Assembly: GCA_947503835.1 (NCBI GenBank) | Contig: CANNFM010000024.1 | Coordinates: 2,787 to 66,786, forward strand | Length of the DNA stretch: 64,000 nt | Direction: 5' to 3' | Origin: an uncultured Aquimarina sp. | Lineage (GTDB): Bacteria > Bacteroidota > Bacteroidia > Flavobacteriales > Flavobacteriaceae | Shown here: piece by piece, positions 53-56,665 of the stretch | How positions within the stretch are numbered: the first letter of the stretch is position 1 | How the letters are laid out: every line of letters starts with the position of its first letter | Translations under genes and position numbers: made by a program | The notes under the pieces: generated by a model | What the model was told of the DNA's origin: nothing | Databases searched by the model: none | The model's input: only the letters and a program-made list of their open reading frames with translations

Positions 53-202
53 TTAATGTTCTTCTTTAGTACACGTAAAAGTATCAGAAGTTAAGTTTTG
101 AATTCCTAGAGCTCCTCCTTTTATAGAGTTAGGATTTTCAAGTTTAGTAATTCTTAATTTATCAAGAGTAAGTTTAGCCTTTGGATTGTGTGAATTTTTC
201 AT
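53..202 (-). CDS. Unannotated 49-aa RiPP precursor peptide with a Bacteroidota-type double-glycine leader (putative LanA-like substrate of the adjacent split LanB)
   Basis: Hand translation of the minus strand, ATG at 202-200 and TAA at 55-53: MKNSHNPKAKLTLDKLRITKLENPNSIKGG / ALGIQNLTSDTFTCTKEEH. The leader has the LxLxKxxIxxL...IKGG pattern typical of Bacteroidota GG-type natural-product precursors. The 19-aa core is rich in Ser/Thr (5) and has one Cys. An A-rich untranslated region precedes the ATG (cataaaaacaaaaacATG). The gene lies on the same strand as, and just downstream of, the lanB-like genes. It is below the ORF-track length cutoff. Confidence 0.7.
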   Translation of the reverse strand: MKNSHNPKAKLTLDKLRITKLENPNSIKGGALGIQNLTSDTFTCTKEEH

Positions 203-230: not shown

Positions 231-259
231 CTAAAGTATAAGTAAATCTTAAAAACAAA
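231..259 (-). promoter_or_regulatory. Candidate Bacteroidota-type promoter for the precursor peptide gene (-33 TTTG, 17-bp spacer, -7 TActTTAG)
   Basis: The minus strand reads ccTTTGtttttaagatttacttaTACTTTAGcactatc...ATG. There is one mismatch to the TAnnTTTG consensus. The predicted 5' UTR is about 25-30 nt and A-rich. Confidence 0.35.
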
Positions 260-284
260 GGAGAATCGAGGCTGTAGTTGTCTG

Positions 285-320
285 GTTTTCAGGAATGCAG
301 ATGTCTGGATTCCTGAAAAC
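285..320. promoter_or_regulatory. Perfect 12-bp inverted repeat (gttttcaggaat N12 attcctgaaaac) between the AraC-like gene and the precursor peptide gene; candidate operator
   Basis: Read directly: 285-296 gttttcaggaat, 309-320 attcctgaaaac. Each arm is preceded by the direct repeat gtctgg. No U-tract follows on either strand, so it is not a canonical terminator. Confidence 0.6.
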
Positions 321-352
321 AGGTTTGTAAATAATTGAAAATCAGTTGTTTA

Positions 353-2101
353 TTAGTTTTGTTGATTTTCCGTATTATATTGCTGCTTTTCGAGTTGTTT
401 TAGGAAAAATGAGGGATAGATTCCTGTGGTTTTATAAAATGACTTGGAAAAAGCTTCAGTGGTATTAAAGCCAATCTCATTTGCGATTGCTTTTATGGTA
501 TATTTTCTAAACTTTGAATTAGACTTTAATTCTTCGACTACGTAATCAATTCTCAGCTCGTTTACATAATTACTAAAACTTTTGTCCTTATGCATGTTAA
601 TCACTTTGGATAGATACTTAGAATTTGTTTTAAATCTTTTAGATAAACTACTAACGGTTAGATTAGCTTCTAAAAATTCATTATTGTTTTCAAAAGATTC
701 AAGATTTTTAAGGATATCATTAACGATAATTTCTGAAATTCCTATGTCTGTAGGTTTAGTATTTTCGGATTTTTCTTCTGCTGTTGTTGTTAGGGTTGTT
801 TTTATAGAAGGTTTTTTGTTATCATCGAGTAGTTCAAGAAATCTTTTTTTGTAAGTTCTTTTCTTTTTCTCGTTTAAAAATAGGGTTATCATTAATGCCA
901 AAGAGATTAGAGAAAGAATCACTAAAACAATAACCTTAGTTTTATTATTTTTTTCGAGAGAGTCAATGATTTCTTGTTTTTCTAATATTAAATTAGGTGT
1001 TGAGTATTCTTCGTTAATCTGTCGGGATAAGTATTTAAAATTATTGTCGAGTATACTATCTACAGTTAATAGTTTATCAATATAAAAAATGTGCTGATCT
1101 GTATTTTTTTGTTCTTTATAATATTTGATTAGCAATTCATATGCTTCTCTTATTTTGGGGAAGAAGTATTGTGTAGAAAAGGCTATTGAGTCGACTTTTT
1201 TGAGATGGTGTATAGATTTGTTAAAATCATTTTGAGAGAAGTATATTTTACCTAAATAGAGCTCTACTCTTTCTGCAGTACCAGGGCCTTGTATTTTATA
1301 ATCTCTTAATTTCTTTAATTTAGTAATGCTATCCAGACTAGGTTGATATTGTTTTTTATAATAATGTGCCATAGCCGTAGTCAATAGAAGCCTGGTATAT
1401 AAAATACTATCTTTTGATTTTAAACTTAAGCGTATAGCTTTTTTATTGATGGTGTAAGCAGAGTCGTATTTTTTTATTGCATTATATACCGCACCAGTGG
1501 CGTAGAGAGATTTAATATAATCATATTCATACTCTTTATCCTGTTTGAATTTGTTTTCGTAGTACGTTACGGTAGATTGCAAAAGTTCTAGACCTTCTTG
1601 GTATTCGCCAAGATTATTCTTTAAAATGGCAATAAAATATTTTGTCTTAAATTTTTGATCAATATTGTCGTTTTTATTTGCAAATAAATTAGCTTTTACT
1701 AATTCATCCATAGATTTTTGATAGTCTCCCTTAGAGCCAAAAACTCTGGCTTTTAATAAATAAGCTTTAGCTGGATAATCAAAATCTTTTTCTTCTTTGG
1801 TAATTGTTATAATACTATCGGCATACAATAAAGCTTCATCGTGCTCTGAAACTGTAGCAAGCATATAGTATCCATTAGCCTTTTCAATCTTGCTTTGATC
1901 TTGCTTTGCTTTTAATAAAAAGGCTTGTGCATATATACGCGCTTTTGCAGAATCATTTATTTGCTGATTAAAATTTTCGAAAAGCTCTGCGTATTTTTTT
2001 TGAACAAGATTTATATTTTTTTCGTTGATATCCTGGGTATAGATATTTTGAAGCAATATAAAAGTTGCAAGAAAGACGATTTTGTGTTTAATTTTTTTCA
2101 T
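353..2101 (-). CDS. Membrane-anchored TPR-repeat / AraC-family (HTH_18) transcriptional regulator
   Basis: 582-aa ORF. It has an N-terminal signal/anchor (MKKIKHKIVFLATFILLQNIYTQ), then about 360 aa of TPR-like helical repeats. One internal TM helix (VIVLVILSLISLALMITLFL) is followed by a basic stretch (NEKKKRTYKKRF), which fits the positive-inside rule. The C-terminus carries an AraC-type double HTH (...TIKAIANEIGFNTTEAFSKSFYKTTGIYPSFFLKQL). Confidence 0.85.
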   Translation of the reverse strand: MKKIKHKIVFLATFILLQNIYTQDINEKNINLVQKKYAELFENFNQQINDSAKARIYAQAFLLKAKQDQSKIEKANGYYMLATVSEHDEALLYADSIITITKEEKDFDYPAKAYLLKARVFGSKGDYQKSMDELVKANLFANKNDNIDQKFKTKYFIAILKNNLGEYQEGLELLQSTVTYYENKFKQDKEYEYDYIKSLYATGAVYNAIKKYDSAYTINKKAIRLSLKSKDSILYTRLLLTTAMAHYYKKQYQPSLDSITKLKKLRDYKIQGPGTAERVELYLGKIYFSQNDFNKSIHHLKKVDSIAFSTQYFFPKIREAYELLIKYYKEQKNTDQHIFYIDKLLTVDSILDNNFKYLSRQINEEYSTPNLILEKQEIIDSLEKNNKTKVIVLVILSLISLALMITLFLNEKKKRTYKKRFLELLDDNKKPSIKTTLTTTAEEKSENTKPTDIGISEIIVNDILKNLESFENNNEFLEANLTVSSLSKRFKTNSKYLSKVINMHKDKSFSNYVNELRIDYVVEELKSNSKFRKYTIKAIANEIGFNTTEAFSKSFYKTTGIYPSFFLKQLEKQQYNTENQQN

Positions 2102-2119
2102 TTCCTAATAGATGTATTT

Positions 2120-2995
2120 TCAATTAGAATTTAATGACATAGTTTTCATAGTGTCAGAGTTATATTTTTTGTTTAGGAAATCATAAATTATAAGCTCATA
2201 AAAACGTTGTTGTGATCTAAATGCTCTATTTACCATCATATGTATATAACTACTAATAAGATTATGTAATGACATTTCTAAAGAATTATTTTTGCTATAA
2301 TTTAAAATACGTCTAATGATTTCTTCTGTTGTATTGGCTTTATTGAGCAAAATTTTATCTAAAACTTCATAAGTCTCATTTGAATACGTATCACCTAAAA
2401 AAACAGAAATTTCTTTTTTTAAATTTCCGTATTTTTTATTGAGCTGTTTATTAAGGTTTTTATCAGCATTAAATTCAGCCTTATAACTATCTTTATTTTT
2501 AGAAACTAATATTACCTTTTCTTTAACTTCATATTCAAAGTTTTCTAATAATTGATGTATTGCCTTTAACACAAACAAAAAGTATAGCTCTTCATCTTCT
2601 ATTATTGACATGGCTTGTATCAACATTGTACTTTCATGATAAAAAAGCTCTTCGGATTCTTCAATAGTATTTGATCCGTATCGCTCTATTTCTCTTTGAT
2701 ATGTGTCAACTTGTATTTTATGTATTATGTCTTCATCTATATATGATCTTAATGCTTTATTCATCAAAAGAATTACTTCATTAATCTTTTTGATTTCATT
2801 AAGATGTAATCTAATTCTTATATGATACTCTGGATCATTATATCGTATAAAAAACCACTTATCTATAAGTTTATTTTTAATTAATTGTTCTACTAATGGT
2901 TTTATGGTCTCGGTTAAAATAATGTTAGACATTCTGGCACCACAATACAATTTGTAATACAACCATTCATCACCTAATAAGAATATTCTCTTCAT
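2120..2995 (-). CDS. Lanthipeptide/thiopeptide dehydratase C-terminal glutamate-elimination domain protein (SpaB_C-like); second half of a split LanB
   Basis: 291-aa ORF beginning MKRIFLLGDEWLYYKLYCG, the W-x-Y-x-K-h-Y opening characteristic of the LanB C-terminal / thiopeptide-type bacteriocin biosynthesis domain. Its ATG (2995-2993) overlaps the upstream ORF by 26 nt, suggesting translational coupling. Confidence 0.8.
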   Translation of the reverse strand: MKRIFLLGDEWLYYKLYCGARMSNIILTETIKPLVEQLIKNKLIDKWFFIRYNDPEYHIRIRLHLNEIKKINEVILLMNKALRSYIDEDIIHKIQVDTYQREIERYGSNTIEESEELFYHESTMLIQAMSIIEDEELYFLFVLKAIHQLLENFEYEVKEKVILVSKNKDSYKAEFNADKNLNKQLNKKYGNLKKEISVFLGDTYSNETYEVLDKILLNKANTTEEIIRRILNYSKNNSLEMSLHNLISSYIHMMVNRAFRSQQRFYELIIYDFLNKKYNSDTMKTMSLNSN

Positions 2996-5276
2996 TTTTC
3001 GTTTTAGTATCTGGTGTTAGTAGTGCAGTACTTTTCTTTTTTGAATTGTTTAACTTTTCTTCATTATAAAACGAAAACACAAATTGATTAGAGTAGTTCT
3101 TTTTCTGGCTTTTTAAAATGCTTTCTTCAGTGAATAGAAATTCTTCTAGTATAAATTGAGTTCTGTTTTTTACTATGCTAAATAACATTTTAACCGAAGG
3201 CATGTTTTCCAGGTTAATTAATAAAGTATTATCATTATCTATTAATTGAACATATTGTGGAATTTGGAGTTTTGATCTCCATTTTACCACTTCGGCAACA
3301 TTGTTTTGATTGTTATCAATGCTTTCTAATAAAGAATTAATACTTTTTGTAGTGATTTTCCATCTGGCTTTCGAAAATATAAACTCTTTGTACTCTACTC
3401 TTGGCAAGAAGGTGTTTTTTTCCATCATTCCTCCCCAATAAAACCCAATAGAACTCCTTAGGTCTTGTTGTTGCAGATCGCATAAAAAATGATAAATCGG
3501 TAAACTGTTTTGCCCACTATAGTTATGGGCGTTGGTTAATTTGGGAAATATTTCTGTATTGTTTACTTTGGATCGCAGAACTATCTTATTTCGTTTTATA
3601 GAAATTAGTATATCATCAATGAAGATTTGCTGCTCTTTGGGAAGGTTGGATTTTCCTAGGTAAGGGATTTCATAATTTCGAATTGTTGCTCGGCGTATTA
3701 TATTACCTGTTCTGGATTCTGGCAAATGTATGATTTCGGTTAGAAGTTTATCATGATTCATATCTTGTTCAAGATTTGCAATATGTTGAACTTGCTTCAT
3801 GATTTGAGTATTTCCTGTAGAAAAACGTCCTAAAAGATTTGCGGCAGATGAGCCTCCCATGTTTTTTAATACAAGTTTTTGTTTACCATTAATAGTTACA
3901 ATTTCTACGAGAGAAGATACTGTGTCGGGTAAATCATTCCAGTTTGCTGGTAGATGTTCAAAATCTTGATCTTGTAATTGTAATGTATAGGCGTTATCAT
4001 CATTTAATTCTTGCAATTTCTTATGTAAGATTTCATTTGCAGGATTCCATGAGATTTTTTGAATCTCCTGATTTTGGGGTGGGATATCTATACCATCTAA
4101 AAATGGTTTATAATCTGCGGCTTCTTGATTTTGAAGATATCCAATGCCAATTTCTGTATCTAAGGCTTTTGCAAGAGGAATTTCTCGAGTCTCATATCTT
4201 TTTATGAATGCAGTTTTGAATCTTTGTAGATTAGATTCTTGTGGGGGAGTGCTTATTTTGTTTAAAAGATTCATTACCCTTTTTGCCTTGTATGCAAACT
4301 GTACATCTAGTTGATTTTGTAGCGTTTTAATGTACATATCTGTTTGAAATAAATACTTAAGTTCAAAATCTACATCAAGTTTTTTTATTTCTTCGTTGTT
4401 CTTATGGTATAGATCAACAGAATTTCCAACATTTTGATCTATTCGATCAAGAAACTCCTGAAAATAGGTGATTTGAGTAATGATTGCGTCTGTATCCTTT
4501 AATTTTTTGAGAGTTTTATGAATTTGAAGTAAAAAACCTTCCCCACTAACAGAGGGCTCTAATTCACTAACCAAAATTTGATTATCAATGAGTTGGTTTA
4601 TGAATCCCTGAGCTTCGTTTTTAGATATTTCATCGTCGACCAAAAGAGAGGCCAGTTCTTCAACTTTTTTCCCTGATTTAGCACTGTTGATAATCACTTC
4701 AAGATATGGAGTATAGGTAACGGCTTCAATGCTATGTTGCCTACGATTATGGATATTATATGTATATTCAACATATCTATACTGCTTTCCTATTTTATAT
4801 AGACTATTGTTTGGATACCATAATAATTGATTCTTTATATTTTTTTCTTTGGATAATTTTTGAGAAAATGCAACTAGAAAATTCATGTCAAACCGAGTTT
4901 GTCTTTGATTTTCAGTATAATGTTGAAGTTCAATAGTTGTTAATTTTCCAAATTTCCCGATACTACAGCCTGCAAACAGACCAAAAGGTGTACATCTTGA
5001 TGACATCCGGGAGAGGTACTTAAGTAATGAGGTTTGTAACCGTTGTATTTTTTTCTGATCCCTTGTCTGGTTTGATAACCACTTTTCTATTTCAATAAAC
5101 AGTTCTGGAGATGCTAGAAAAATAGCTTCTTTGATAGCATTGTCATTCCATATTTCCTTATACTTTTCAAATGATATCTGGTTGTCTTTAGTTAAACTGT
5201 AATAAAAATCTAAAGGTAGCAGAGGTGTGCGTATACAAAAATCATCAAAAAATGTGTATGGATTTTTTTGTTTCAA
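2970..5276 (-). CDS. Lanthipeptide dehydratase N-terminal (glutamyl-tRNA-dependent glutamylation, Lant_dehydr_N) domain protein; first half of a split LanB
   Basis: 768-aa ORF. The N-terminus ...YTFFDDFCIRTPLLPLDFY matches the conserved F-x-x-R-T-P-L-L-P start of LanB and thiopeptide dehydratases, and the size fits the glutamylation domain. The start codon at 5276-5274 is TTG, with no nearby in-frame ATG. Confidence 0.85.
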   Translation of the reverse strand: MKQKNPYTFFDDFCIRTPLLPLDFYYSLTKDNQISFEKYKEIWNDNAIKEAIFLASPELFIEIEKWLSNQTRDQKKIQRLQTSLLKYLSRMSSRCTPFGLFAGCSIGKFGKLTTIELQHYTENQRQTRFDMNFLVAFSQKLSKEKNIKNQLLWYPNNSLYKIGKQYRYVEYTYNIHNRRQHSIEAVTYTPYLEVIINSAKSGKKVEELASLLVDDEISKNEAQGFINQLIDNQILVSELEPSVSGEGFLLQIHKTLKKLKDTDAIITQITYFQEFLDRIDQNVGNSVDLYHKNNEEIKKLDVDFELKYLFQTDMYIKTLQNQLDVQFAYKAKRVMNLLNKISTPPQESNLQRFKTAFIKRYETREIPLAKALDTEIGIGYLQNQEAADYKPFLDGIDIPPQNQEIQKISWNPANEILHKKLQELNDDNAYTLQLQDQDFEHLPANWNDLPDTVSSLVEIVTINGKQKLVLKNMGGSSAANLLGRFSTGNTQIMKQVQHIANLEQDMNHDKLLTEIIHLPESRTGNIIRRATIRNYEIPYLGKSNLPKEQQIFIDDILISIKRNKIVLRSKVNNTEIFPKLTNAHNYSGQNSLPIYHFLCDLQQQDLRSSIGFYWGGMMEKNTFLPRVEYKEFIFSKARWKITTKSINSLLESIDNNQNNVAEVVKWRSKLQIPQYVQLIDNDNTLLINLENMPSVKMLFSIVKNRTQFILEEFLFTEESILKSQKKNYSNQFVFSFYNEEKLNNSKKKSTALLTPDTKTKNEENILIR

Positions 5277-5312
5277 TGTAAAAATATAAATAAGCCCCGG
5301 TTAATAAGTACA

Positions 5313-5320
5313 CAAATATA
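5313..5320 (-). promoter_or_regulatory. Candidate -7 box (TATATTTG) for the lanB operon
   Basis: The minus strand reads ctgTATATTTGtgtac, about 37 nt upstream of the TTG start at 5276. This is a perfect TAnnTTTG, but no clear -33 TTG was found. Confidence 0.3.
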
Positions 5321-5423
5321 CAGTTTTCTTTATAATTGTTTTTTTTTATTAATTCTTATTTAAAATATTGATAATCAAATAATTGATAATTTTTTTATCT
5401 CCCTTAATTCCATGAATTACGGG

Positions 5424-5443
5424 TCTTGATTCCTGAAAACGGG
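5424..5443. promoter_or_regulatory. Second copy of the half-site motif (gtctNgattcctgaaaacNgg) in the divergent lanB / NusG-NRPS intergenic region
   Basis: Positions 5424-5443 (gtcttgattcctgaaaacgg) and 302-321 plus flank (gtctggattcctgaaaacagg) share an exact 13-mer, gattcctgaaaac, and match at 19 of 21 positions overall. Both copies are intergenic. Confidence 0.5.
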
Positions 5444-5452
5444 CTTTAACCA

Positions 5453-5485
5453 TTTGTTTTGTGGTTTAGTTTTGATTTATGTTTG
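5453..5485 (+). promoter_or_regulatory. Candidate Bacteroidota-type promoter for the NusG-like/NRPS-PKS operon (-33 TTTG 5453-5456; -7 TATGTTTG 5478-5485)
   Basis: The spacer is 21 bp. An alternative -7 box, TAGTTTTG, lies at 5467-5474. This promoter would give a leader of about 340 nt before the ATG at 5835. The short motifs are common in AT-rich DNA. Confidence 0.35.
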
Positions 5486-5658
5486 TATCAGATAACGAAA
5501 CAGATATTATTAATTCATATCATATTCGATTATTGATTTTAAACTTTTTGATTAGTAAAAAAGCATCTTATAATAGCTTAAAAAAGTTAAGATGAACAAA
5601 ATTAATTTAGAAGTTATATAAAGAACAGTAAGTAACTTTTTTACTGTAGAAGATTAAG

Positions 5659-5703: not shown

Positions 5704-5834
5704 AGAATATACTTGATGTGAGTCAAGGAAGCGAAGCTATAGGCTTTTTCTAGATTTCTTTTGATTATCACTATTACAAAACACGAATATATACTTAAGA
5801 TAGTAAGTAAACTATCATCTAAAACACAATAATT

Positions 5835-6362
5835 ATGGGCAAACTTCTTAAAATAGGTTGGTACGTTTTATACGTTAGATCACATCAAGAAAAAAAAGTT
5901 GACAACTTGCTAAAAGAGAGTCAGCTGGAGTCATTTCTTCCTTTGGTAAAGACTGTAAGACAATGGAGTGATAGAAAGAAAATAATTGAAGCTCCTCTTT
6001 TTCCTTCATATGTTTTCGTCAAGATTAATTCTGCACAAGATTTCTATAAAGCATCATCGATTGAAGGTGCTTGCACCTTTATTCGCTGTGGTGGTGAATA
6101 TGCATTAGCCCAAGATCATGAAATACAAAAAATTAAGCTTTTTCTCGGTTCTAAGGATATCACTAATGTTGGTAAAGTTACCAGCAATCTTGAAGTTGGA
6201 GAAACTATGATGATTCAATACGGATCCCTTGCTGGTTTAGAATGTGAAGTCTTAAAGGTAAACAATGAAAATAAGATTGTTGTTCGATTAGATTCTATAA
6301 ATCAAGGTATTACTGCAACAATACCTTCGCAATTTTTATCAAAAATCTCAAAAGCAGTGTGA
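5835..6362 (+). CDS. NusG-family specialised paralogue (UpxY/LoaP/TaA-like transcription antiterminator)
   Basis: 175-aa ORF. It has an N-terminal NGN-like region (WYVLYVRSHQEKKVDNLL...PLFPSYVFVKI) and a C-terminal KOW-like region (GETMMIQYGSLAGLECEVLKVNNENKIVVRLD). It is the first gene of the ~58 kb co-directional block, and its TGA (6360-6362) overlaps the next start. Confidence 0.85.
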   Translation: MGKLLKIGWYVLYVRSHQEKKVDNLLKESQLESFLPLVKTVRQWSDRKKIIEAPLFPSYVFVKINSAQDFYKASSIEGACTFIRCGGEYALAQDHEIQKIKLFLGSKDITNVGKVTSNLEVGETMMIQYGSLAGLECEVLKVNNENKIVVRLDSINQGITATIPSQFLSKISKAV

Positions 6363-8446
6363 TGAAAAATAAAATATCTAAGGCACAAGCGGATAATCGG
6401 TTAGATTACCAGATGCCAGAAAATAATCAAATAGAGTTCGTTACTTATATAAATTCTATCCGAGAGCGTAATCATGCTACTCAACTCATTTTTTATGGAA
6501 GAAATAATAATCAAACAAACTATAACGGATACAGAATAGAAATTAAAGAGATCGAGAAATCGATCCAACGGGTAAATATATATGTGGTAGATTGTTATGT
6601 GTGTATCGATGAAGTTAATAATAATCCAATCTTGATAGCCTATCTTATAGCAAATGAATCTTTTGTAAATGTTACAACATTGGCTATTAAATTAAAAAGA
6701 TATTTGCCTGATTATATGATCCCAACTCATTTTGTGATTATAGATGCAATTTCTTTGCTTCCTAATGGTAGAATTGATATAAAAAAATTACCAAAGCCTA
6801 AGTTTTCGGATATTAAAGAAGTGGTTAAATTGCCTTCAACAGAAGAGGAAAGAAAGATAGCGGCAATTTGGAAAGAATTATTGAAATTAGACGAAGTAGA
6901 TGTTAACGTTAGTTTTTTCGAATTAGGAGGACATTCATTGCTTGCTAATGAATTTATAAATACGGTAAGAAATGAAAAGGGAATAGATTTATCGATACAA
7001 GATTTTTATAAAAATCCAACAATTAAAGGAATTAGTAAATTAGTTCCTTCTTTAAAAAAGAAACCAAATCAAAAGATAGTTGCACCCAACCTTGAGCTTT
7101 ATCCTTTATCGTATTCTCAAGAAGCGATTTGGTCTTTGGATCAACTTGATGCTACTCATCAATTTTGTTATGAATCTAGGGCGATTAAACTAAAAGGCAA
7201 TGTAGATCATTATTTATTAGAAAAAACTTTTTCTAAACTTATAGAAAAACACGAGATTTTAAGAACGGTTTTTGAGTTGATAGAAGGAGAGCCTTTCCAA
7301 AAGATATTACCTCCATATACATTTAGCATTCCGGTTACGAATTATGTAGGATTGAAGAAAAAAGACCAGAAAAAGATAATTATTGATCGTATAGAGAATA
7401 CCAAGAACTCTTCTTTTGACATAGAAAAAACACCTCTTTTTAAAGCAGAGATGCTAAAATTTTCGACAAAAGAAAACGTTCTCATATTTTGTAGCCACAA
7501 TATGATTCTTGATAAGTGGGCTCAAAGAATTTTGTTTAAGGATTTTGTTGATGTTTATAATGAACTAAAGAGGAATCCTAATTTCGAGATTAAAAAACCG
7601 AAAGTTAGTTATAAAGACTATGCGTTTCTGGAAAAAGAAAACCTAAATGAAGCAGCCCTCAATAAACGATTAGATTTTTGGCAAGATAAACTAGAAGGTT
7701 TTTCAAATGAATTGCTGGTTCCTGTAGATAATGTTAGGCCAAAAAAGCAGGTAAAAACAAGAGAGGTTATACCGCATGTTCTATCATTAGAGTTTTCTGA
7801 GAAATTAAGACAGTTCTCTGAAATGCAGAACGTTTCCTTATTTATCACAATGATTTCGGCTTTTAAAATAATGTTGAGTAAGTATAGTAACCAAACAGAC
7901 ATTTGTGTGGGGACTTCATTAATAAATACGTTCTATCAAGGGTATCAAGAAGTTTTGGGAGCTACCGTAAATACTATTCCATTAAGAGATCGTCTTAATT
8001 ATGATCATAGCTTGTTAGAGGTTTTGGATCATGTTAAAAAAACTTGTTTAGATGCATATGCATGTGGTGATACTCCTTTTGAAAAAATTGTAGGTCGAGT
8101 ATGCCCAGAAAGAAATTTCAATCCTCAAGCATTATTTAGATATATGTTTAGTTTTATTGATTTTCCAATAAAAAATATGTCATTATTAGATGCCGAAATC
8201 GAGATAATAAAAGGATATTGTGACCTTTCTACGTTTGACATCAATGTAGTTGTAAACACAACACAAGAACAAGCTGATTTTTCTTTAGTAAATCAAACAG
8301 ATAGAAGAATTTCTTTAGAATGGCAATATAATTCTGATATTTTTAAAGCTACTACAATGGAGTATATATTATCTATGTATTTAATAACATTAAACGAGCT
8401 GATCACCAATCCCAACCAATCTCTTGGTACTACTTCTGTGATTTAA
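6359..8446 (+). CDS. Atypical NRPS protein: relic adenylation C-terminal subdomain - T (PCP) - C domain with degenerate active-site motif
   Basis: Only A8-A10-like motifs are present: YGRNNNQTNYNGYRIEIKEIE, LPDYMIP, and NGRIDIKKLP, where the A10 Lys is replaced by Arg. There is no A1-A7 core. The T domain is FFELGGHSLLA (about 6919-6948). A full-length C fold follows, with SHNMILDKW (7493-7519) in place of HHxxxDG. The track start at 6359 is GTG. The ATG at 6362 shares its A with the upstream TGA and is the likelier start. Confidence 0.85.
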   Translation: MMKNKISKAQADNRLDYQMPENNQIEFVTYINSIRERNHATQLIFYGRNNNQTNYNGYRIEIKEIEKSIQRVNIYVVDCYVCIDEVNNNPILIAYLIANESFVNVTTLAIKLKRYLPDYMIPTHFVIIDAISLLPNGRIDIKKLPKPKFSDIKEVVKLPSTEEERKIAAIWKELLKLDEVDVNVSFFELGGHSLLANEFINTVRNEKGIDLSIQDFYKNPTIKGISKLVPSLKKKPNQKIVAPNLELYPLSYSQEAIWSLDQLDATHQFCYESRAIKLKGNVDHYLLEKTFSKLIEKHEILRTVFELIEGEPFQKILPPYTFSIPVTNYVGLKKKDQKKIIIDRIENTKNSSFDIEKTPLFKAEMLKFSTKENVLIFCSHNMILDKWAQRILFKDFVDVYNELKRNPNFEIKKPKVSYKDYAFLEKENLNEAALNKRLDFWQDKLEGFSNELLVPVDNVRPKKQVKTREVIPHVLSLEFSEKLRQFSEMQNVSLFITMISAFKIMLSKYSNQTDICVGTSLINTFYQGYQEVLGATVNTIPLRDRLNYDHSLLEVLDHVKKTCLDAYACGDTPFEKIVGRVCPERNFNPQALFRYMFSFIDFPIKNMSLLDAEIEIIKGYCDLSTFDINVVVNTTQEQADFSLVNQTDRRISLEWQYNSDIFKATTMEYILSMYLITLNELITNPNQSLGTTSVI

Positions 8447-8633
8447 AGAGAAATTTCTGATTACACAGGAGGACTTCGTATCTCTAGCTAAGTTTATCAC
8501 AATATTACAAGTAACTACAATTTTTTCTTAGCCCACAGGGGTTGAGAAATCATCAAGGATTTATCATGAGTTTTTGAGAAATGAAAATTGTAAATTTTTA
8601 TAATTCCATCATCCATTAAATATTTTATATATA

Positions 8634-10300
8634 ATGAATTCTTTAAAAAAATATAAGACACTTTCTCAAGTGCTCGAATTTAGGAAAAACTCAACCAAGG
8701 GGATAACTTTTATCGAAGGTGGTGAGAAAGAAATTTTTCTTTCTTATAATGAGCTATACCATAAAGCTGTAACAAAATTGTCTTATCTGCAAAAGAAAGG
8801 AATAAAACCCCAAAATGAATTGGTGTTTCAAATTAATGATAATGAGACATTTATTATTCTTTTTTGGGCTTGTATTCTTGGAGGTATAATTCCTGTGCCG
8901 TTAAGTATTGGAAGAAATTCAGAACATAAACAGAAACTCTTCAATATTTGGCCAATATTAAATAACCCTTATTTAGCAATTTCAAAAGACGAAATTGGCA
9001 AACTTAAGAATTATGATGACAAGGATAAGTTGGCTGAGATAGAGGAAAAGATTATTGATTTTGAAGGTAAACTTAGCGGAAATAATACTGCAACAATATA
9101 TGAAGCACAAAAAGATGATATTGCTTTCATTCAATTTTCTTCGGGATCTACTGGAAACCCAAAAGGTGTAGTTTTAACTCATGAGAATTTGTTAACAAAT
9201 ATATTGGATATTAGTACGGCTTCAAGTTATGCCGAGGAAGATTCAATGATTAGCTGGATGCCACTCACTCATGATATGGGGCTTATAGGTTTTCATTTGA
9301 ACCCTTTGTTTATAGGAATGAATCATTATTTGATGCCTACGGATCTTTTTGTAAGAAGACCGTCTATATGGTTAGATAAAGCAAGTGAACACCAAATAAG
9401 TATTTTATGTTCTCCTAATTTTGGGTATAAATATATTTTAAAACATTGTAATGTTGACAGTTCAGAACAGTGGGATTTAAGTGCTGTTCGATTAATTTAC
9501 AATGGGGCAGAACCTATTTCAGAGACAATAAGTAATCAATTTTTAGAAAGTCTATCTAAATATGGATTAAAAAAATCTGCAATGTGTCCGGTTTATGGTT
9601 TAGCCGAAGCAAGTTTGGCGGTTACCATATCTAACCTTGAAGATACTGTTGTATCCTTTAATTTTGATAGAGATCAATTAAATACAGGAGATAAAGTTCG
9701 AATAACATCCAGGGAGGAAAATAATTCAGTGTCATTTGTTAAAGTAGGAAAACCGATTAATCATTGTTCGTTAAGAATTACAGATGAAAAAAATGAATTG
9801 GTTAAAGAAGAAGTAATAGGACACATTCAAATTAAAGGGGATAATGTTACATCTGGGTATTATAACAATCCTGAAGCTACTAGAAATGCTGTCATAGAAG
9901 ATGGCTGGGTTAAGACAGGAGATTTAGGTTTTATCAAAGATGAAGAACTATACGTAACAGGAAGATTAAAAGATATTATTTTTAGCAATGGGCAAAATTA
10001 CTATCCTCATGATATAGAACGTATAGCCGAAAAAGTAGATGAGATTGAACTTAATAAGGTTGCTTTTGGCGGTTTTTTTAATGGCAATACTCAAAAAGAA
10101 GAAATTATCGCTTTTGTATTTCATAGAGGAAGCTTAGATAAGTTTATCCCAATCGTAACAGCATTAAAAGAAGTGGTACATACAGAAATTGGGCTAGATA
10201 TAAATAGTGTAGTACCTGTAAAAAACATGCCGAAGACCACAAGCGGAAAGTTACAGCGCTTTAAGTTATTATCCGATTATAGAAATGGGGCTTTTGATGA
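8634..10300 (+). other. Fatty acyl-AMP ligase (FAAL) loading domain
   Basis: The motifs FSSGSTGNPKGVVLTHENLLTN and SWMPLTHDMGLIGFHLNPLFIG are FAAL-type rather than amino-acid A-domain type. An ACP follows directly. Boundaries are approximate. Confidence 0.8.
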
Positions 10301-13300
10301 AGTAAATGAAAAAGTGAAATCTTTAATTCTTGAAAAGAATTTCGACAATATAGTAGTACCTGCTAATGAGAAAGAGCATAAACTACTTACTATTTGGAAA
10401 AATGTTCTGGACTTCGAAAATATCAGTGTAGAAAAAAGCTTTTTTGAACTCGGAGGTAACTCATTAAAAGCCGCCGAAATGATGATGGCTTTGGTTAAAG
10501 AATTTCAAGTAGAAATCACACCTGATATACTCTATAAATATCAAACTATAAGAGGTTTAGCTTCAGTGTTAACTAAATTAAAACCCAAAACATATAATGC
10601 AATACCTAAGTCGGAGACTTCAAATTTTTATCCTGTTTCTAGTGCACAAAAAAGACTATACTATGCCTGGAAAATGGATAAAAGAAGTGTAGCATATAAT
10701 ACTCCTACTGCATTTAAAGTACAAGGAAGAATAAGCACTGAAAAATTAAGAAAGGTAATCAATGAATTAGTGAATAGACACGACGCCTTACGAATGGTGT
10801 TTGATGAGATGCCGAATCCTGTTTTTAGCACTGATGAAATAAATGAAGTGCCTATTTCAATTAAGAATTGTGAGCATCATACTATTCAAAACGAGCTTCG
10901 TAGACTCGTTGTGCCTTTTGATCTTACTACAGGACCATTATTTAGAATCACTGTTCTAAATATTGAAAATAAAGAGGCTATTCTGTTTTTAGATTTTCAT
11001 CATATTATTTCTGATGGAGTATCGATTCATCATTTTGTAAAAGAAATGATAACGCTATATGAAGGTAAGACATTAGAACCATTGACTATTGGTTATGGTG
11101 ATTATAGTAATTGGGAAAAAAACTATTATGATGAAGAAACTTTATCTTCACATCAATCGTATTGGTTAGACCAATTAAGAGGAGATTTACCAGAATTAAA
11201 GATAGAACCAGATTATCCAAGACCACCAATTTTTACTCCTAAAGGTGAAAAGATAGAGTTTGAATTCGATACTACTACAACTGCAAGATTAAAAACACTT
11301 GCTAATGAACAAGGGTGTACTTTACATGTGTTGATGTTTACCATGTACCATATGTTGATTGCCAAATACTCAGGAGCAAACGAAACAATAATAGGAATAC
11401 CAGTTGCAGGACGTAAACATCCAGATGTGCAATCCATGCAAGGAATGTTCGTTAACAACCTTCCGATAAGAAACACAATAAAAGGAGAACAAACAGTACG
11501 TGAAATCTTAAGAGATGTTGATGAACGTATTTCTAATGGGTTATTACATCAAGATTTTCCTTTTGATGAAATGATTACTGCAATTGCAAATACAAAGAAC
11601 ACCAGTAGAAACCCAATTTTCGATACGATGTTCGTTTATCAAAATATGGGAACCACAACACTTATTGGTCAAGATTTTACCTTGTCGAGATACTTTTTTG
11701 ATCCTGGCTATTCTAAGTTCGATATCTCCATAGAAGTTTTTGAAAATGACAAATCTCTTAAATATGGAATAGAATATAATACTACATTGTTTAAAAGAGA
11801 TATGATCCTAAATCTTCAAACATGTTTTGAAAATTTAGTAACTGAAATACTAAACGATCCAGATATTCCCTATGCAACATTATCATTACTAGACACTAAG
11901 GAAACCGATAGGTTTACTTATTTGTTTAATAATGATATTAAAACATATCCTAAAGAAAAAAGTGTATATCATCTGTTTGAAGAACAAGTACAAAGAGTAC
12001 CGAAATCGATAGCGTTAGAATTTGGTTCCCAAACGATGACATATGAAGAATTGAATGCTAAAGTTAACCACTTTGCTTTAGTACTAAAAGGAGAAGGAGT
12101 AGAGACTCAAGATGTTGTAAGTGTCTTGTTGCCAAGATCTTTTGAACTGGTGATCTCTATTCTGGGTGTAATGAAAATAGGAGGTGTATATGTTCCTTTA
12201 GATGCTGACCTACCCGAAGATCGTATTTGTTATATTTTAGAGCATAGTCAGTGTAAATATCTTATTACCAATTCTAACATGGAGTTAAAGGTTAACTCTG
12301 ATGATGAGGCTATATTTCCAGCATGTATTACCATAGATGATATCACATCGTCTAATGAGATTCTAAATACCAATATCGAATTTAAATACAGTTCTCAAAG
12401 TCCGGCATATATTTTATATACTTCCGGTACAACAGGTAAACCTAAAGGAGTTGTTGTTACAAATTCTTCTCTAACAAATTATACATGTTGGGCGGCAGAA
12501 ACATACATTAAAGAGAAATCAGCAAAATTTCCTTTATATACATCAATTTCATTTGATTTAACCGTAACCTCTATTTTTACTCCTTTAATTACTGGAAATA
12601 CAATTGTTATTTATGAAGAGGAACAGCAAGAAGTGTTGATAGAAAAAGTACTTAATGATGGTGTTGCAAACGTTGTGAAATTAACCCCATCACATCTAAA
12701 AATCATTCGAGATTTAAATATACAAGAAACACATTCAATTAAAAGATTTATAATAGGAGGTGAGGAGCTTGAAACCTCTCTGGCAAAAGATATTTACAAT
12801 CAATTTGGCGAAGATATAGAGCTATATAATGAATACGGTCCAACAGAAGCAACTGTAGGGTGCATGATATATAAGTTTGAACCAACAGATGATTTTAGAA
12901 CCGTTCCAATTGGGGTTCCTATAAAAAACACCCAAATCTATTTACTAGACGAATTCTTAAAACCTGTACCAGTCGGTGTACGAGGTGACTTATATATTTC
13001 GGGAGATGGGCTTGCACAAGGATATTTTAATAATGCCGCACTCACTAATGAGAAATTTATAGAAAATCCATTTGTAGAGGGGCAAAAAATGTATCAATCG
13101 GGAGATATTGCAGTAAGACGTTCTAATGGATTATTAGAGTATATCGGTAGATCAGACCAACAGATTAAAATTAATGGTTATAGAATTGAAATTCCTGAAA
13201 TCGAAAATTGTTTATTAGATCATTCAGGTATTAAACAAGCAATAGTCATATGTACTGATGCATCGGGAGAAAAATCATTACATGCCTATTATAGAAGCAT

Positions 13301-15092: not shown

Positions 15093-15143
15093 ATAGTACT
15101 TATAAAACACTCATTTTACAATTATTAAATAAAAAACAATGAT

Positions 15144-16130
15144 ATGAAATCACATGATATACAAATAATTTCGGGTAAAAAAATGTTGCTTCAAATCGAT
15201 GATAACAAGGTTAATATTTTTGATTGGCTACATCAATATAAAGAAGATATAGAAGATTTTATTTCTGTTAATGGAGCACTATTAATTCGTGGCTTGGGGG
15301 TTTCTAATGATAAAGAATTTGGAGAAGCTTTAGAATTAGTATTTGGAGAAGAATTAGCAAATTATACATACAGATCTACTCCAAGAAGAGAAGTAAATCA
15401 AAGTAAAGTGTATACAGCAACAGAATATCATGCTTCTGAGGTAATTCCTCAACATAACGAAAATGCGTATTCGAATTCTTGGCCAATGAGAATAGGATTT
15501 ACCTGTTTGGTTCCTGCTGATAAAATGGGGAATACTCCAATTTCGGATAGTAGAGAAGCATACCAAAAAATTCCTATTGAAATAAGAGAAGAATTCGAAA
15601 GAAAGAACATCAAGTATGTTAGAAACTATTCAGATATAGATTTGCCATGGGAAGAAGTATTTCAAACCACTAGCAAGACAGAGGTAGAGCAATATTGTAA
15701 TGAAAACAATCTAACATTTGAATGGACAGATAATGGATTGAGAACTAGTCAGGTAAATCAAGCTACGATCATGCATCCAACTACAAAAGAGATGTTGTGG
15801 TTTAACCAAGCTCATTTGTTTCACTCTAGTAACTTAGATTCAGAAATTAGAGAAGGATTAATAGAGTTGTTTGGTGAAGATAATTTACCACGTAATTCGT
15901 TCTTTGGTGATGGTACCCCAATTGACGAAGAAGCACTTTCGATCATAAGAAAAGTGTTTGAGGATACTAAATTTTCTTTTCAATGGAGTAAAGGAGACTT
16001 ACTTCTTCTAGACAATATGTTATATACGCACGGAAGAGAACCTTATGAAGGAAACAGAAAAATCCTTGTAGGAATGGCTAAAAAATATAGCTCTCAAATG
16101 CGTCGTAGTAGAGTATCTACAGATTTATAA
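15144..16130 (+). CDS. TauD/TfdA-family Fe(II)/2-oxoglutarate dioxygenase (SyrP/AsnO-like amino-acid beta-hydroxylase candidate)
   Basis: 328-aa ORF. It has an H-x-E facial-triad candidate (QHNENAY), a distal His (LYTHGREPY) and the typical ~330-aa size of NRPS-associated hydroxylases. It is embedded between NRPS genes. Confidence 0.75.
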   Translation: MKSHDIQIISGKKMLLQIDDNKVNIFDWLHQYKEDIEDFISVNGALLIRGLGVSNDKEFGEALELVFGEELANYTYRSTPRREVNQSKVYTATEYHASEVIPQHNENAYSNSWPMRIGFTCLVPADKMGNTPISDSREAYQKIPIEIREEFERKNIKYVRNYSDIDLPWEEVFQTTSKTEVEQYCNENNLTFEWTDNGLRTSQVNQATIMHPTTKEMLWFNQAHLFHSSNLDSEIREGLIELFGEDNLPRNSFFGDGTPIDEEALSIIRKVFEDTKFSFQWSKGDLLLLDNMLYTHGREPYEGNRKILVGMAKKYSSQMRRSRVSTDL

Positions 16131-16466
16131 TTCTCTATCTTGATTTACGATATATTCAATAATATTTGTAAAGTATTATTTGAATAAAATTACCACTATA
16201 GCGCTTCATGATTACTTAGAAAATCATTAATATTTATGTTTGTTTTTTTGGACAATTCATCAAAAAATTAAGCAAATATAATAACTCACATAAAGAATAA
16301 TAGATGTGGGTAGAATTCACTTCAATACATAGAAAGAGTACATCTGTATTCTGCTGTAAACTGTTTAATGTATTAATAACAATTGCGAATTATCAAGGGA
16401 AGATAATGACGTAGTTATGCTTTAGAATCTCTCTTTTAGAAAGTAAAAACTGATAAAATTTTAATA

Positions 16467-17981: not shown

Positions 17982-18046
17982 TTTCAATGTACATCACTCA
18001 ATAAACTTCAATTCAAATTGATATACAAAACTATTAAAAGGAACTA

Positions 18047-25801: not shown

Positions 25802-25809
25802 AAGAAGCC

Positions 25810-36153: not shown

Positions 36154-36201
36154 CTCACTCTAAGCTCAAAAATCAATTATTAACATTTAATAAAGAAAAC
36201 A

Positions 36202-42321: not shown

Positions 42322-42333
42322 CCTTTATTTCAT

Positions 42334-51258: not shown

Positions 51259-51310
51259 TCATTCAAAATCGATTTGAACATTAATTTATTAAAAAATACA
51301 ATATAAAATT

Positions 51311-53173: not shown

Positions 53174-53397
53174 TTACCTCCTGTCTTTACAATAGACTTT
53201 TATAAGGAAACCCTTTAGCATAAACAGATTATTTTAAAAATGTAGCGAAGCTACTGTTCCTGCAGTAGTTTCTCGTTGCAATGGAGTTCCTTATTCATAA
53301 AACAGAATAAACCAAGGAAAGAAATTGAAATCATTTCTCACTTCTTAAAAAATACAAACAACATTCATAAACAATAATAACTGAAAAAAACACTGTT

Positions 53398-56556: not shown

Positions 56557-56665
56557 TACACAGAAAAAATTATTGATTACTTCATTGTGAATTCTACCCG
56601 TTTTTTACCCTAAAAATATGGATAAGGGTATACATTTTATAGAAATATATTAAAAAATAAAGTTC

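What the first reader, a model, noticed from the sequence alone, without database searches (positions are those of the whole stretch)
5424..5443. Same motif upstream of the NusG-NRPS-PKS promoter: RiPP and NRPS-PKS halves may form one regulon
The half-site recurs at 5424-5443, with the exact 13-mer gattcctgaaaac and 19 of 21 positions matching including flanks. Read in the direction of the downstream gene, attcctgaaaac lies about 52-63 bp upstream of the predicted plus-strand start of the NusG-like operon. It lies about 60-71 bp upstream of the predicted minus-strand start of the precursor gene, so orientation and distance are similar. An exact 13-mer shared between two short intergenic regions is unlikely by chance: roughly 0.04 expected across all ~1.6 kb of intergenic DNA in this window. 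This suggests one regulator, possibly the adjacent AraC-like protein, couples peptide and lipopeptide/polyketide production.
Basis: partly seen in the sequence, partly recalled or inferred. Interest (0 to 1): 0.65.

Follow-up and report, generated by a model that had tools for sequence, protein, structure and literature searches.

The report
Shared activator site, peptide and NRPS-PKS promoters
The same two-box DNA site lies at a fixed distance upstream of both the small-peptide gene and the giant NRPS-PKS operon in this marine flavobacterium and seven relatives. This suggests the membrane-bound AraC-type regulator encoded between them switches both on together, a likely handle for activating a silent antibiotic-type gene cluster.

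Summary
GATTCCTGAAAAC occurs exactly at 308-320 and 5428-5440, and 21 of 24 positions match once flanks are included. One with at least 5 G/C is expected about 0.005 times.

Site 2 is not a lone half-site. Both places carry two TTC-N2/3-GAA boxes exactly 22 bp apart. A pattern for that architecture hits exactly two places in each of eight orthologous loci from Aquimarina, Dokdonia and metagenomes, with regulator identity down to 52%. One hit lies 47-48 bp upstream of a conserved Bacteroidota -7 box (TATGTTTG) in front of the UpxY-type NusG paralog and NRPS-PKS operon. The other lies 57-58 bp upstream of the -7 box of the GG-leader precursor gene. Flanking DNA has diverged.

A TPR, transmembrane, AraC-HTH regulator gene sits between the two sites in all eight loci, including the four that lack LanB. 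I conclude this is a conserved bipartite activator operator shared by the two promoters, most likely bound by that regulator. Binding and co-expression are inferred, not shown.

The LanB operon promoter lacks the site. The NusG leader carries an ops-like GCGAAGC element.

The parts
5428..5440 (+). The reported exact 13-mer GATTCCTGAAAAC. It is the core of the promoter-proximal unit of site 2.
   Evidence: It is conserved in 8 of 8 orthologous loci as (A/T)TTCC(T/C)GAA(A/T)AC.
5408..5444 (+). Complete site 2. The distal box TTCCATGAA is at 5408-5416 and the proximal box TTCCTGAA at 5430-5437, with starts 22 bp apart. Each box is followed by a G-rich element: cGGGTC after the distal box and aacGGGC after the proximal box (GGAC in most relatives).
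   Evidence: Regex hits and table. Invariant columns of alignment A3. Column conservation is 0.88 in the site against 0.69 upstream.
5453..5485 (+). Putative sigma-A promoter of the NusG-NRPS-PKS operon. The -33 element TTTG is at 5453-5456, followed by a 21-nt spacer and the -7 box TATGTTTG at 5478-5485. The inferred start is near 5490.
   Evidence: A.TTGTTT and TATGTTTGTA are invariant in 7 aligned loci. The proximal box lies 47-48 nt from the -7 box in 8 of 8 loci. The -7 consensus and its position come from PMC9723704. The start site is inferred, not mapped.
5706..5750 (+). Invariant element in the 5' leader, GAATAnAC...ATGTGAGTCAAGGAAGCGAAGCTAT, containing the ops-like core GCGAAGC at 5731-5737. 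It is probably the loading or pause site for the UpxY-type NusG paralog.
   Evidence: Alignment A5. B. fragilis opsE is CTGCGAAGCATA and the class consensus is YGCGNAGCR (PMC11685472).
5835..6362 (+). NusG paralog of the UpxY family, 175 aa. It is the first gene of the operon.
   Evidence: Pfam NusG at 68.5 bits. NCBIfam NF033644 UpxY family at 141.8 bits, above the cutoff of 100.
6359..63838 (+). NRPS-PKS assembly line plus tailoring genes (TauD-like dioxygenase, amidohydrolase, asparagine synthase-like). It includes two KS-AT-KR-ACP modules and runs to the end of the window.
280..317 (-). Site 1, read towards the precursor gene. The distal box TTCAGGAA is the reverse complement of 310-317. 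The proximal box TTCCTGAA is the reverse complement of 288-295. Starts are 22 bp apart and each box is followed by CAGAC. In this genome the site is also a near-perfect 36-bp palindrome at 285-320.
   Evidence: Column conservation is 0.85 in the site against 0.61-0.68 in the flanks.
231..238 (-). Putative -7 box of the precursor promoter, TACTTTAG (TAnnTTnG). The inferred start is near 226. A -33-like TTTG at 259->256 is not conserved in the relatives.
   Evidence: TA..TT.G is invariant in A4. The proximal box lies 57-58 nt from it in 8 of 8 loci.
53..202 (-). Precursor peptide of 49 aa. The leader is MKNSHNPKAKLTLDKLRITKLENPNSIKGG and the core is ALGIQNLTSDTFTCTKEEH.
   Evidence: The LxLxKx5L plus GG leader is described for Bacteroidetes class I LanAs (PMC7268733). 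There is a weak hit to NF038153.
353..2101 (-). Candidate regulator of 582 aa. It has an N-terminal signal or anchor, a TPR domain, one transmembrane helix (about residues 388-410) followed by KKKR, and a C-terminal AraC-type HTH_18 domain.
   Evidence: Pfam hits and hydropathy. The HTH domain is 74-99% identical among orthologs against 54-90% for the TPR domain. The gene lies between the two sites in 8 of 8 loci.
2120..5276 (-). Split class I lanthipeptide dehydratase. Lant_dehydr_N is at 2970-5276 and Lant_dehydr_C at 2120-2995. Its own conserved -7 box TATATTTG is at 5320->5313, with no two-box site at a fixed distance.
   Evidence: The genes are present in only 4 of 8 orthologous loci.

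Best explanation
The 13-mer at 5428-5440 is the promoter-proximal half of a bipartite transcription-factor operator. The operator has two TTC-N2/3-GAA boxes with starts exactly 22 bp apart, about two helical turns. Each box is followed 2-4 nt later by a (C/A/G)(A/G)G(A/T)C element. A second copy of this operator lies in front of the precursor-peptide gene.

Both copies sit upstream of Bacteroidota sigma-A type promoters, at about -53 to -82 for the NusG-NRPS-PKS operon and -62 to -91 for the precursor. The two registers differ by about one helical turn.

The most likely binding protein is the regulator encoded between the sites. Its AraC-type two-HTH domain is cytoplasmic and its TPR domain is predicted to face the periplasm. 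It would bind as a dimer, or as two monomers, and activate both promoters in response to an extracytoplasmic signal.

Transcripts started at about 5490 then cross a 345-nt leader containing an ops-like GCGAAGC element. There the operon's own UpxY-type NusG paralog would load and carry RNA polymerase through the NRPS-PKS operon of more than 58 kb.

Shown here: the sequence architecture, its conservation, its position and its synteny. Inferred: the identity of the binding protein, activation rather than repression, the transcription start sites and co-expression.
For: 1. The exact 13-mer occurs only at these two intergenic places in the 64-kb window, and site 1 carries it twice in inverted orientation.
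2. A GC-containing shared 13-mer is expected 0.005 times by chance.
3. The two-box pattern was derived from the window and L002. It then hit exactly two places in each of L003/L004, L005, L006, L007 and L010, always the same two contexts. That gives 14 hits in 193 kb against 0.8 expected. By contrast, 26 loci with paralogous regulators (173 kb) gave 1 hit.
4. Box-to-box spacing is 22 bp in 16 of 16 sites. The distance from the proximal box to the -7 box is 47-48 nt at the NusG promoter and 57-58 nt at the precursor promoter in all 8 loci.
5. Boxes, the -33 element and the -7 box are invariant while flanks diverge.
6. The distance from site 2 to the LanB promoter varies from 88 nt to more than 300-400 nt. 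Site 2 therefore travels with the NusG promoter.
7. The regulator gene is flanked by the two sites in 8 of 8 loci, even where LanB is lost. Its HTH domain is much better conserved than its sensor domain.
8. Two ~17-bp repeats at about 21-22 bp periodicity next to a promoter are the classic AraC/XylS operator layout (own knowledge).
9. Distant paralogs in L008 and L009 each have one two-box hit in the intergenic DNA beside the regulator gene, and again sit next to GG-leader peptide genes.
10. The ops-like element and the UpxY-family score support transcription entering from upstream of 5706.
Against: There is no binding, expression or start-site data.

The source genome could not be scanned, so further copies elsewhere are not excluded. 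Such copies could be other regulon members or a dispersed element.

The two sites differ in register by 9-10 bp. Their distal boxes also differ (N3 vs N2 core, GGGTC vs CAGAC), so the two promoters need not respond identically.

The precursor -7 box is imperfect (TAnnTTAG) and lacks a conserved -33 element.

The sites lie further upstream than most AraC-family operators, which usually overlap -35.

Most paralogous regulators with 48-60% HTH identity show no such motif nearby. The L008 and L009 hits could therefore be coincidence.

A regulator encoded elsewhere could be the true binding protein.
Confidence: 0.72

Rival explanations
1. The element is a conserved operator, but for a regulator encoded elsewhere in the genome, such as a global or stress regulator. 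The adjacent AraC-TPR protein would then have another target or role.
For: Nothing here shows which protein binds. An AT-rich palindrome (C/T)TGAT(A/T)(A/T)TCA lies upstream of both sites in most loci, which hints at a second factor at both promoters. Most paralogous regulators lack a recognisable copy of the motif nearby.
Against: The regulator gene is flanked by the two sites in 8 of 8 loci across two genera, even when the intervening LanB genes are lost. Conservation of the HTH domain parallels conservation of the motif. No other regulator gene is conserved in these loci.
Confidence: 0.13
2. Site 2 controls the divergent LanB / LanB_C / regulator operon rather than the NusG operon. The shared motif would then define a RiPP-only regulon of dehydratase operon plus precursor, and the NRPS-PKS would not be coupled.
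For: Site 2 lies in the divergent intergenic region. With flanks included, its best match to site 1 (GTCT.GATTCCTGAAAAC.GG.TT) has the same plus-strand orientation as site 1, and the two RiPP promoters both read on the minus strand.
Against: The distance from site 2 to the conserved LanB -7 box is 88 nt here but more than 300-400 nt in L007 and L002. Its distance to the NusG -7 box is 47-48 nt in every locus. Site 2 is kept with unchanged geometry in the four loci with no intact LanB genes within 10 kb (L002, which keeps a ~52-codon remnant, L005, L006, L010). Read towards the promoter, both proximal units have the same form, TTCCyGAA-N2-3-nrGAC.
Confidence: 0.07
3. The element acts as RNA, or is a repeat with no regulatory role. 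It might be a hairpin that terminates or attenuates read-through from the regulator gene into the precursor, a fragment of a dispersed repeat or MITE, or a chance match.
For: In this genome site 1 folds into a hairpin of -20 kcal/mol (z = -7.3) just downstream of the regulator's stop codon. Any shared 13-mer is expected about once in this AT-rich intergenic DNA.
Against: Hairpin potential is lost in L002, L005, L006 and L007, although the boxes and their spacing are kept. No T-tract follows the hairpin and no terminator-like site was called. Site 2 lies upstream of both inferred divergent starts. There was no Rfam match. No additional copies occur in about 213 kb of orthologous and 173 kb of paralogous loci. 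A GC-containing 13-mer is expected 0.005 times.
Confidence: 0.05

Closest known systems
AraC/XylS-family activator operators (AraC I1-I2, XylS at Pm, RhaS/RhaR, MelR)
   Same: The candidate regulator has an AraC-type HTH_18 domain. The operator consists of two repeated units of about 17 bp at about 21-22 bp periodicity, lying directly upstream of the promoter. Each unit has two conserved sub-elements, as expected for a two-HTH domain.
   Different: The sensor is a TPR domain predicted to be periplasmic, joined through a transmembrane helix. It is not a cytoplasmic cupin or ligand domain. The sites lie at about -53 to -91 rather than overlapping -35. The promoters are of the Bacteroidota -33/-7 type. 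Each core box (TTCnnGAA) is itself palindromic, so repeat orientation differs between loci: inverted here, direct in L002 and L006.
Lantibiotic autoinduction regulons (nisin NisRK with PnisA and PnisF; subtilin SpaRK spa-boxes)
   Same: One operator is repeated in front of the precursor gene and a second operon of the same cluster. The promoter driving the regulator gene lacks the operator. An extracytoplasmic sensor is encoded in the cluster.
   Different: The regulator is a one-component membrane AraC protein, not a histidine kinase and response regulator pair. The second operon is a large NRPS-PKS with its own NusG paralog, not immunity or transport genes. The dehydratase genes are dispensable for keeping the circuit, being present in 4 of 8 loci.
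RRNPP peptide-pheromone regulators (PlcR-PapR, Rgg-SHP, NprR-NprX)
   Same: A TPR-plus-HTH regulator has a small exported-peptide gene immediately downstream. A (near-)palindromic box lies between them and at the target promoter.
   Different: RRNPP receptors are cytoplasmic, carry XRE-type HTH domains and are known from Firmicutes. Here the TPR domain is predicted to be outside the membrane, the HTH is of AraC type and the organism belongs to the Bacteroidota. Peptide sensing is only a hypothesis.
LytTR-regulated class II bacteriocin regulons (for example plantaricin pln; 9-bp direct repeats with a 12-bp spacer)
   Same: GG-leader peptide genes and co-regulated operons are preceded by paired repeats with a period of about 21-22 bp, upstream of the promoter.
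   Different: No LytTR response regulator or histidine kinase is present in any of the loci. The box sequence is unrelated.
UpxY/RfaH/LoaP NusG paralogs with leader recruitment sites
   Same: The first gene of the operon scores as UpxY family, 141.8 bits against a cutoff of 100. The leader carries an invariant element with the GCGAAGC core of B. fragilis opsE. LoaP provides a precedent for NusG paralogs controlling polyketide clusters.
   Different: The operon is an NRPS-PKS operon in a marine flavobacterium, not a capsule operon. No UpxZ-like partner or invertible promoter was seen. The start codon lies about 100 nt after the ops-like core.

Membership tests
AraC/XylS-type regulator plus operator | The regulator carries an AraC-type (HTH_18) DNA-binding domain. 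| tested here: met
   PF12833 at 45.9 bits against a cutoff of 33.6, residues 486-568. The nearest PDB chains are AraC-type domains 6swi and 3oou.
AraC/XylS-type regulator plus operator | The operator has two repeated units at about 21-bp periodicity, at a fixed position beside the promoter. | tested here: met
   Spacing is 22 bp in 16 of 16 sites. The distance to the -7 box is 47-48 or 57-58 nt in 8 of 8 loci.
AraC/XylS-type regulator plus operator | The regulator binds the operator and changes transcription. | not testable with these tools
   This needs EMSA or footprinting and a knockout or reporter. Only synteny and the parallel conservation of HTH domain and motif are available.
Bacteroidota sigma-A promoter | A -7 box TAnnTTTG with an upstream -33 TTG/TTTG. 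| tested here: met
   NusG promoter: TTTG-N21-TATGTTTG, both elements invariant. Precursor promoter: TAnnTTAG is conserved but -33 is not, so the feature is only partly met there. The consensus comes from PMC9723704.
Dispersed repeat / MITE | Many copies at unrelated genomic sites. | tested here: not met
   There are only the two syntenic sites per locus in 64 kb plus about 150 kb of orthologous DNA, and 1 hit in 173 kb of paralogous loci. The whole source genome could not be scanned.
Intrinsic terminator / structured RNA | A conserved stem-loop, with a U-tract for a terminator, or a match to a known RNA family. | tested here: not met
   The hairpin is lost in 4 of 7 loci. No terminator-like call was made at either site. 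There was no Rfam hit in 1-7000.
UpxY-family NusG paralog system | The protein scores above the UpxY family cutoff. | tested here: met
   NF033644 at 141.8 bits against a cutoff of 100.
UpxY-family NusG paralog system | An ops-like GCG-N-AGC element in the operon leader. | tested here: met
   GCGAAGC at 5731-5737 lies inside an invariant block of about 45 nt. The comparison sequence is from PMC11685472. Its function as a pause or loading site was not tested.
UpxY-family NusG paralog system | A cognate UpxZ inhibitor as the second gene. | tested here: not met
   The second gene is a PCP-condensation NRPS protein.
Class I lanthipeptide cluster | A LanB dehydratase (glutamylation plus elimination domains) and a precursor with a Bacteroidetes LxLxKx5L...GG leader. 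| tested here: met
   Lant_dehydr_N and Lant_dehydr_C. Leader (PMC7268733).
Class I lanthipeptide cluster | A LanC cyclase and Cys in the core peptide. | tested here: inconclusive
   The core here has one Cys. No LanC is present in the window. Among the relatives, only L002 has LanC, and only three loci have Cys in the core. The region left of the window is unknown.
RRNPP pheromone receptor | A cytoplasmic TPR receptor with an XRE-type HTH that binds a re-imported peptide. | tested here: not met
   The HTH is of AraC type. A transmembrane helix with a positive-inside KKKR places the TPR domain outside the membrane.

The most novel reading that the evidence does not exclude
The GG-leader peptide may be an extracellular signal rather than, or as well as, an antibiotic lanthipeptide. 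After processing by the conserved secreted S9 peptidase, it would be sensed by the periplasmic TPR domain of the membrane AraC regulator.

The regulator would then auto-induce the peptide gene and switch on the NRPS-PKS operon. Induction would act through the shared operator and the operon's own UpxY-type antiterminator. This would be a peptide-pheromone (quorum-sensing-like) circuit in the Bacteroidota controlling a non-ribosomal pathway.

Four observations are consistent with this reading:
- Regulator, precursor, S9 peptidase, NusG-NRPS and both operators are kept in 8 of 8 loci, while LanB is present in 4 of 8 and LanC in 1 of 8.
- Leaders are conserved, while cores are variable and share only a (D/P/T)T(F/W) motif.
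- The sensor domain evolves much faster than the HTH domain.
- The promoter of the regulator operon lacks the operator, as in nisin-type autoinduction.
Probability: 0.2. Interest if true: 0.85.

Novelty: new variant of a known kind. Interest (0 to 1): 0.58.

Why it matters
Large NRPS-PKS clusters of marine Flavobacteriaceae, including Aquimarina, are mostly silent in culture, and their regulation is essentially unstudied. This analysis identifies a defined operator of about 37 bp, a candidate membrane sensor-regulator and an ops-like leader element.

Together these give concrete handles for activating the cluster. Options include overexpressing the HTH domain or a constitutively active form, adding the peptide, or rewiring the promoter. 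The same features offer a search rule for co-regulated RiPP / non-ribosomal cluster pairs in genomes.

The analysis also documents a two-layer control of a biosynthetic operon outside the Bacteroides capsule loci: a shared activator site for initiation and a dedicated NusG paralog for elongation. If the peptide proves to be the signal, this would be a new type of peptide-based cell-cell signalling in a Gram-negative phylum.

Tried and rejected
- Exact-protein look-ups failed for the window's NusG paralog and for regulators P0003, P0006, P0014 and P0057, which are not on record.
- The single genome-contig scan, with LanB as query, returned only one relative, Aquimarina sp. 2304DJ70-9. Its intergenic DNA is 86-93% identical to the window, too close for footprinting on its own. 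No whole-genome motif scan was possible afterwards.
- The first metagenome scan, with the full regulator alignment, chose TPR-domain patterns and found nothing. A second scan with the HTH-domain alignment worked.
- The sigma-70 promoter scan is uninformative for this phylum, with 32 found against 33.8 expected. I used the Bacteroidota -7/-33 consensus instead.
- Rfam gave no match in 1-7000.
- I considered that site 2 faces the LanB promoter. I rejected this because that distance is not conserved while the distance to the NusG -7 box is.
- I considered a terminator or hairpin role for site 1. I rejected it as the conserved function.
- The AT-rich palindrome TGATAATCA upstream of both sites looked Fur-box-like. 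It occurs 4 times exactly in the window, including in coding DNA, so its sequence alone is not significant. It is left as an observation.
- Literature searches found no description of this operator, of TPR-TM-AraC regulators of RiPP clusters in Flavobacteriaceae, or of NusG paralogs on Aquimarina NRPS clusters.

Full report
**Layout of the window.** The window has 32% GC. Its closest relative among species-representative genomes is Aquimarina sp. 2304DJ70-9, with LanB 89% identical.

Genes on the minus strand:
- A 49-aa precursor at 53-202, with a Bacteroidetes-type LxLxKx5L...GG leader (PMC7268733).
- A 582-aa regulator at 353-2101. It has a signal or anchor, a TPR domain, a transmembrane helix and an AraC HTH_18 domain.
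- Lant_dehydr_C at 2120-2995 and Lant_dehydr_N at 2970-5276.

Genes on the plus strand:
- A 175-aa NusG paralog at 5835-6362. It scores as UpxY family, NF033644 at 141.8 bits against a cutoff of 100.
- An NRPS-PKS line from 6359 to the end of the window, with two KS-AT-KR-ACP modules and tailoring genes.

**Observation.** GATTCCTGAAAAC is exact at 308-320 and 5428-5440. A one-mismatch inverted copy lies at 285-297. With flanks, 19 of 21 and 21 of 24 positions match.

Simulated intergenic DNA of this composition shares some 13-mer about once. Such matches are AT-only words. A shared 13-mer with at least 5 G/C is expected 0.005 times. Any 13-mer shared between these two regions specifically is expected 0.049 times. 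The match is therefore non-random, though for a different reason from the one given.

**Anatomy.** Comparison with L002, whose regulator is 72% identical, shows that the conserved feature is a pair of boxes and not the 13-mer itself. The boxes are TTC-N2/3-GAA with starts 22 bp apart.
- Site 1 has boxes at 288-295 and 310-317.
- Site 2 has TTCCATGAA at 5408-5416 and TTCCTGAA at 5430-5437.

Read towards the downstream promoter, each box is followed after 2-4 nt by a short purine-rich G/C element. This is CAGAC at site 1, and GGAC or GGGTC at site 2. The result is two units of about 17 bp.

**Independent test of the pattern.** The regex was derived from the window and L002. It was then applied to loci fetched through regulator orthologs.
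- The loci were L003/L004 (62% identity), L005 Dokdonia sp. (60%), L006 (58%, A. muelleri protein cluster), L007 Aquimarina sp. AD1 (52%), and later L010 from a metagenome.
- Every locus gave exactly two hits, in the same two contexts.
- In 193 kb there were 14 hits against 0.8 expected, with a maximum of 3 in 40 simulations.
- As a control, 26 metagenomic loci encoding paralogous regulators (48-60% HTH identity, 173 kb) gave a single hit.

**Position relative to promoters.** Alignment A3 covers site 2 in 7 loci. Its invariant columns fall on both boxes, on A.TTGTTT, and on TATGTTTGTA. The last two match the Bacteroidota sigma-A -33 and -7 elements. TAnnTTTG occupies -12 to -5 in Flavobacterium (PMC9723704), which puts the start near 5490.

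The proximal box starts 47-48 nt before the -7 box in 8 of 8 loci. Alignment A4 for site 1 shows the boxes and a TA..TT.G -7 box, with an offset of 57-58 nt in 8 of 8 loci. It shows no conserved -33 element, which would fit an activator-dependent promoter.

The two registers differ by 9-10 bp, about one helical turn. Column conservation is 0.85-0.88 inside the sites against 0.61-0.69 in the flanks.

**Which promoter does site 2 serve?** The LanB operon has its own conserved -7 box, TATATTTG at 5320->5313, with a conserved 5' UTR. Its distance to site 2 is 88 nt here but more than 300-400 nt in L007 and L002. Site 2 also persists with unchanged geometry in the four loci with no intact LanB genes within 10 kb. 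Site 2 therefore belongs to the NusG promoter. The dehydratase and regulator operon appears not to carry the operator.

**Not an RNA element or a repeat.** Site 1 forms a hairpin of -20 kcal/mol in the window, L001 and L003. This potential is lost in L002, L005, L006 and L007, where the boxes persist, in L002 and L006 as direct rather than inverted repeats. No terminator-like site was called and there was no Rfam match. No further copies occur in any fetched sequence.

**Who binds?** The regulator gene lies between the two sites in 8 of 8 loci. Its HTH domain is 74-99% identical among orthologs, and the second HTH motif is nearly invariant among them. The TPR domain is only 54-90% identical.

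A two-repeat operator with a period of about 21-22 bp beside a promoter is typical of AraC/XylS proteins (own knowledge).

More distant family members in A. megaterium (L008) and Flavobacterium poyangense (L009) again sit next to GG-leader peptide genes. Each has one two-box hit in the intergenic DNA beside the regulator gene, plus single boxes before the downstream peptide gene. These points make the adjacent regulator the best candidate, but binding is inferred.

**Downstream layer.** The 345-nt leader contains an invariant block at 5706-5750. Within it, GCGAAGC at 5731-5737 is identical to the core of B. fragilis opsE and fits the GCG-N-AGC class of UpxY recruitment sites. Initiation control by the operator and elongation control by the operon's own NusG paralog are therefore probably stacked.

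**What the RiPP half is.** Regulator, precursor, secreted S9 peptidase, NusG-NRPS and both operators are present in all eight loci. For the window itself, the S9 gene would lie beyond the left edge. LanB_N and LanB_C occur in four loci, with a ~52-codon remnant in L002. LanC occurs only in L002. Cys occurs only in the cores of the window, L001 and L002.

Leaders are conserved. Cores are variable and share only a (D/P/T)T(F/W) motif. This pattern and the fast-evolving extracytoplasmic TPR domain leave room for the peptide being the signal that the regulator senses. The evidence does not exclude this reading, and I rate it at about 0.2.

**Comparison with known systems.** The element works like an AraC/XylS operator, and the circuit resembles nisin- or subtilin-type regulons in which one box precedes the precursor gene and a second operon. 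It also resembles PlcR-PapR in gene order. It is not a member of the RRNPP or LytTR systems, because the defining receptor and regulator domains are absent. I found no prior description of this operator or regulator family in the searchable literature.

**Verdict.** I rate it a new variant of a known kind, with interest about 0.58. Whole-genome scanning, binding assays, start-site mapping and regulator genetics are the decisive missing tests.

Noticed in passing
window 5706-5750 (core 5731-5737): An invariant block in the 5' leader of the NusG-paralog gene contains GCGAAGC. This is identical to the core of the B. fragilis opsE recruitment site for UpxY proteins. It is conserved in all 7 aligned loci, while the rest of the leader is diverged.
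   Followed up: partly
window 5368-5378 and 333-347; aligned columns in A3 and A4: An AT-rich palindrome, TTGATAATCAA or CTGAT(A/T)(A/T)TCA(G/A) followed by TA.TTA, lies 22-40 nt upstream of the distal box at both sites in most loci. It resembles the centre of a Fur box. TGATAATCA is common by chance in this DNA, with 4 exact copies in the window, so only its position is suggestive.
   Followed up: partly
window 16308-16320 (+) and 56587-56599 (-): A second GC-containing 13-mer, GGGTAGAATTCAC, is shared between two intergenic gaps inside the NRPS-PKS operon (TauD/amidohydrolase gap and the 56557-56665 gap), in opposite orientation. Such a match is expected about 0.005 times by chance. No relatives covering these gaps were available.
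   Followed up: no
L002 9713-9868; L005, L006, L010 regulator-NusG intergenic regions: The lanthipeptide dehydratase genes are lost in four of eight orthologous loci. L002 keeps the LanB promoter and a ~52-codon remnant. Precursor genes with intact leaders, the S9 peptidase and both operators are retained. LanC is present only in L002.
   Followed up: partly
precursor genes: window 53-202, L001 15076-15252, L002 11908-12309, L003 10074-10229, L005 12391-12582, L006 11926-12096, L007 12616-12765, L010 ~11055-11245: Core peptides are highly variable, often acidic, and mostly lack Cys. All of them contain a Thr followed by Phe or Trp (DTF, DTW, PTW, TTW, TIW). Leaders are nearly constant.
   Followed up: partly
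regulator protein, window 353-2101 (-), vs P0001-P0101: The cytoplasmic HTH domain is far better conserved than the predicted periplasmic TPR domain. For example, P0007 is 91% vs 55% identical and P0035 is 74% vs 54%.
   Followed up: partly
L008 11818-16958; L009 3425-16786: Distant paralogs of the regulator sit beside other GG-leader peptide systems. In A. megaterium this is an array of at least 8 small peptide genes with a VKOR-domain protein. In Flavobacterium poyangense it is a C39-peptidase ABC exporter, an S8 peptidase and split LanB. TPR-TM-AraC proteins may be general regulators of exported-peptide loci in Flavobacteriaceae.
   Followed up: partly
window 5277-5337 (minus-strand promoter and 5' UTR of LanB): A block upstream of LanB is strongly conserved (window, L001 and the L002 remnant). 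It holds the -7 box TATATTTG (5320->5313) and a GC-rich stretch, TTAACCGGGGCTTA, in the short 5' UTR. It survives in L002 in front of the LanB remnant, where it may now drive the regulator gene.
   Followed up: no
window 13190-13202; L001 2079-2091: A two-mismatch copy of the motif, AATTCCTGAAATC, lies inside the NRPS coding sequence and is identical in L001. It is most simply explained by chance plus coding conservation.
   Followed up: no
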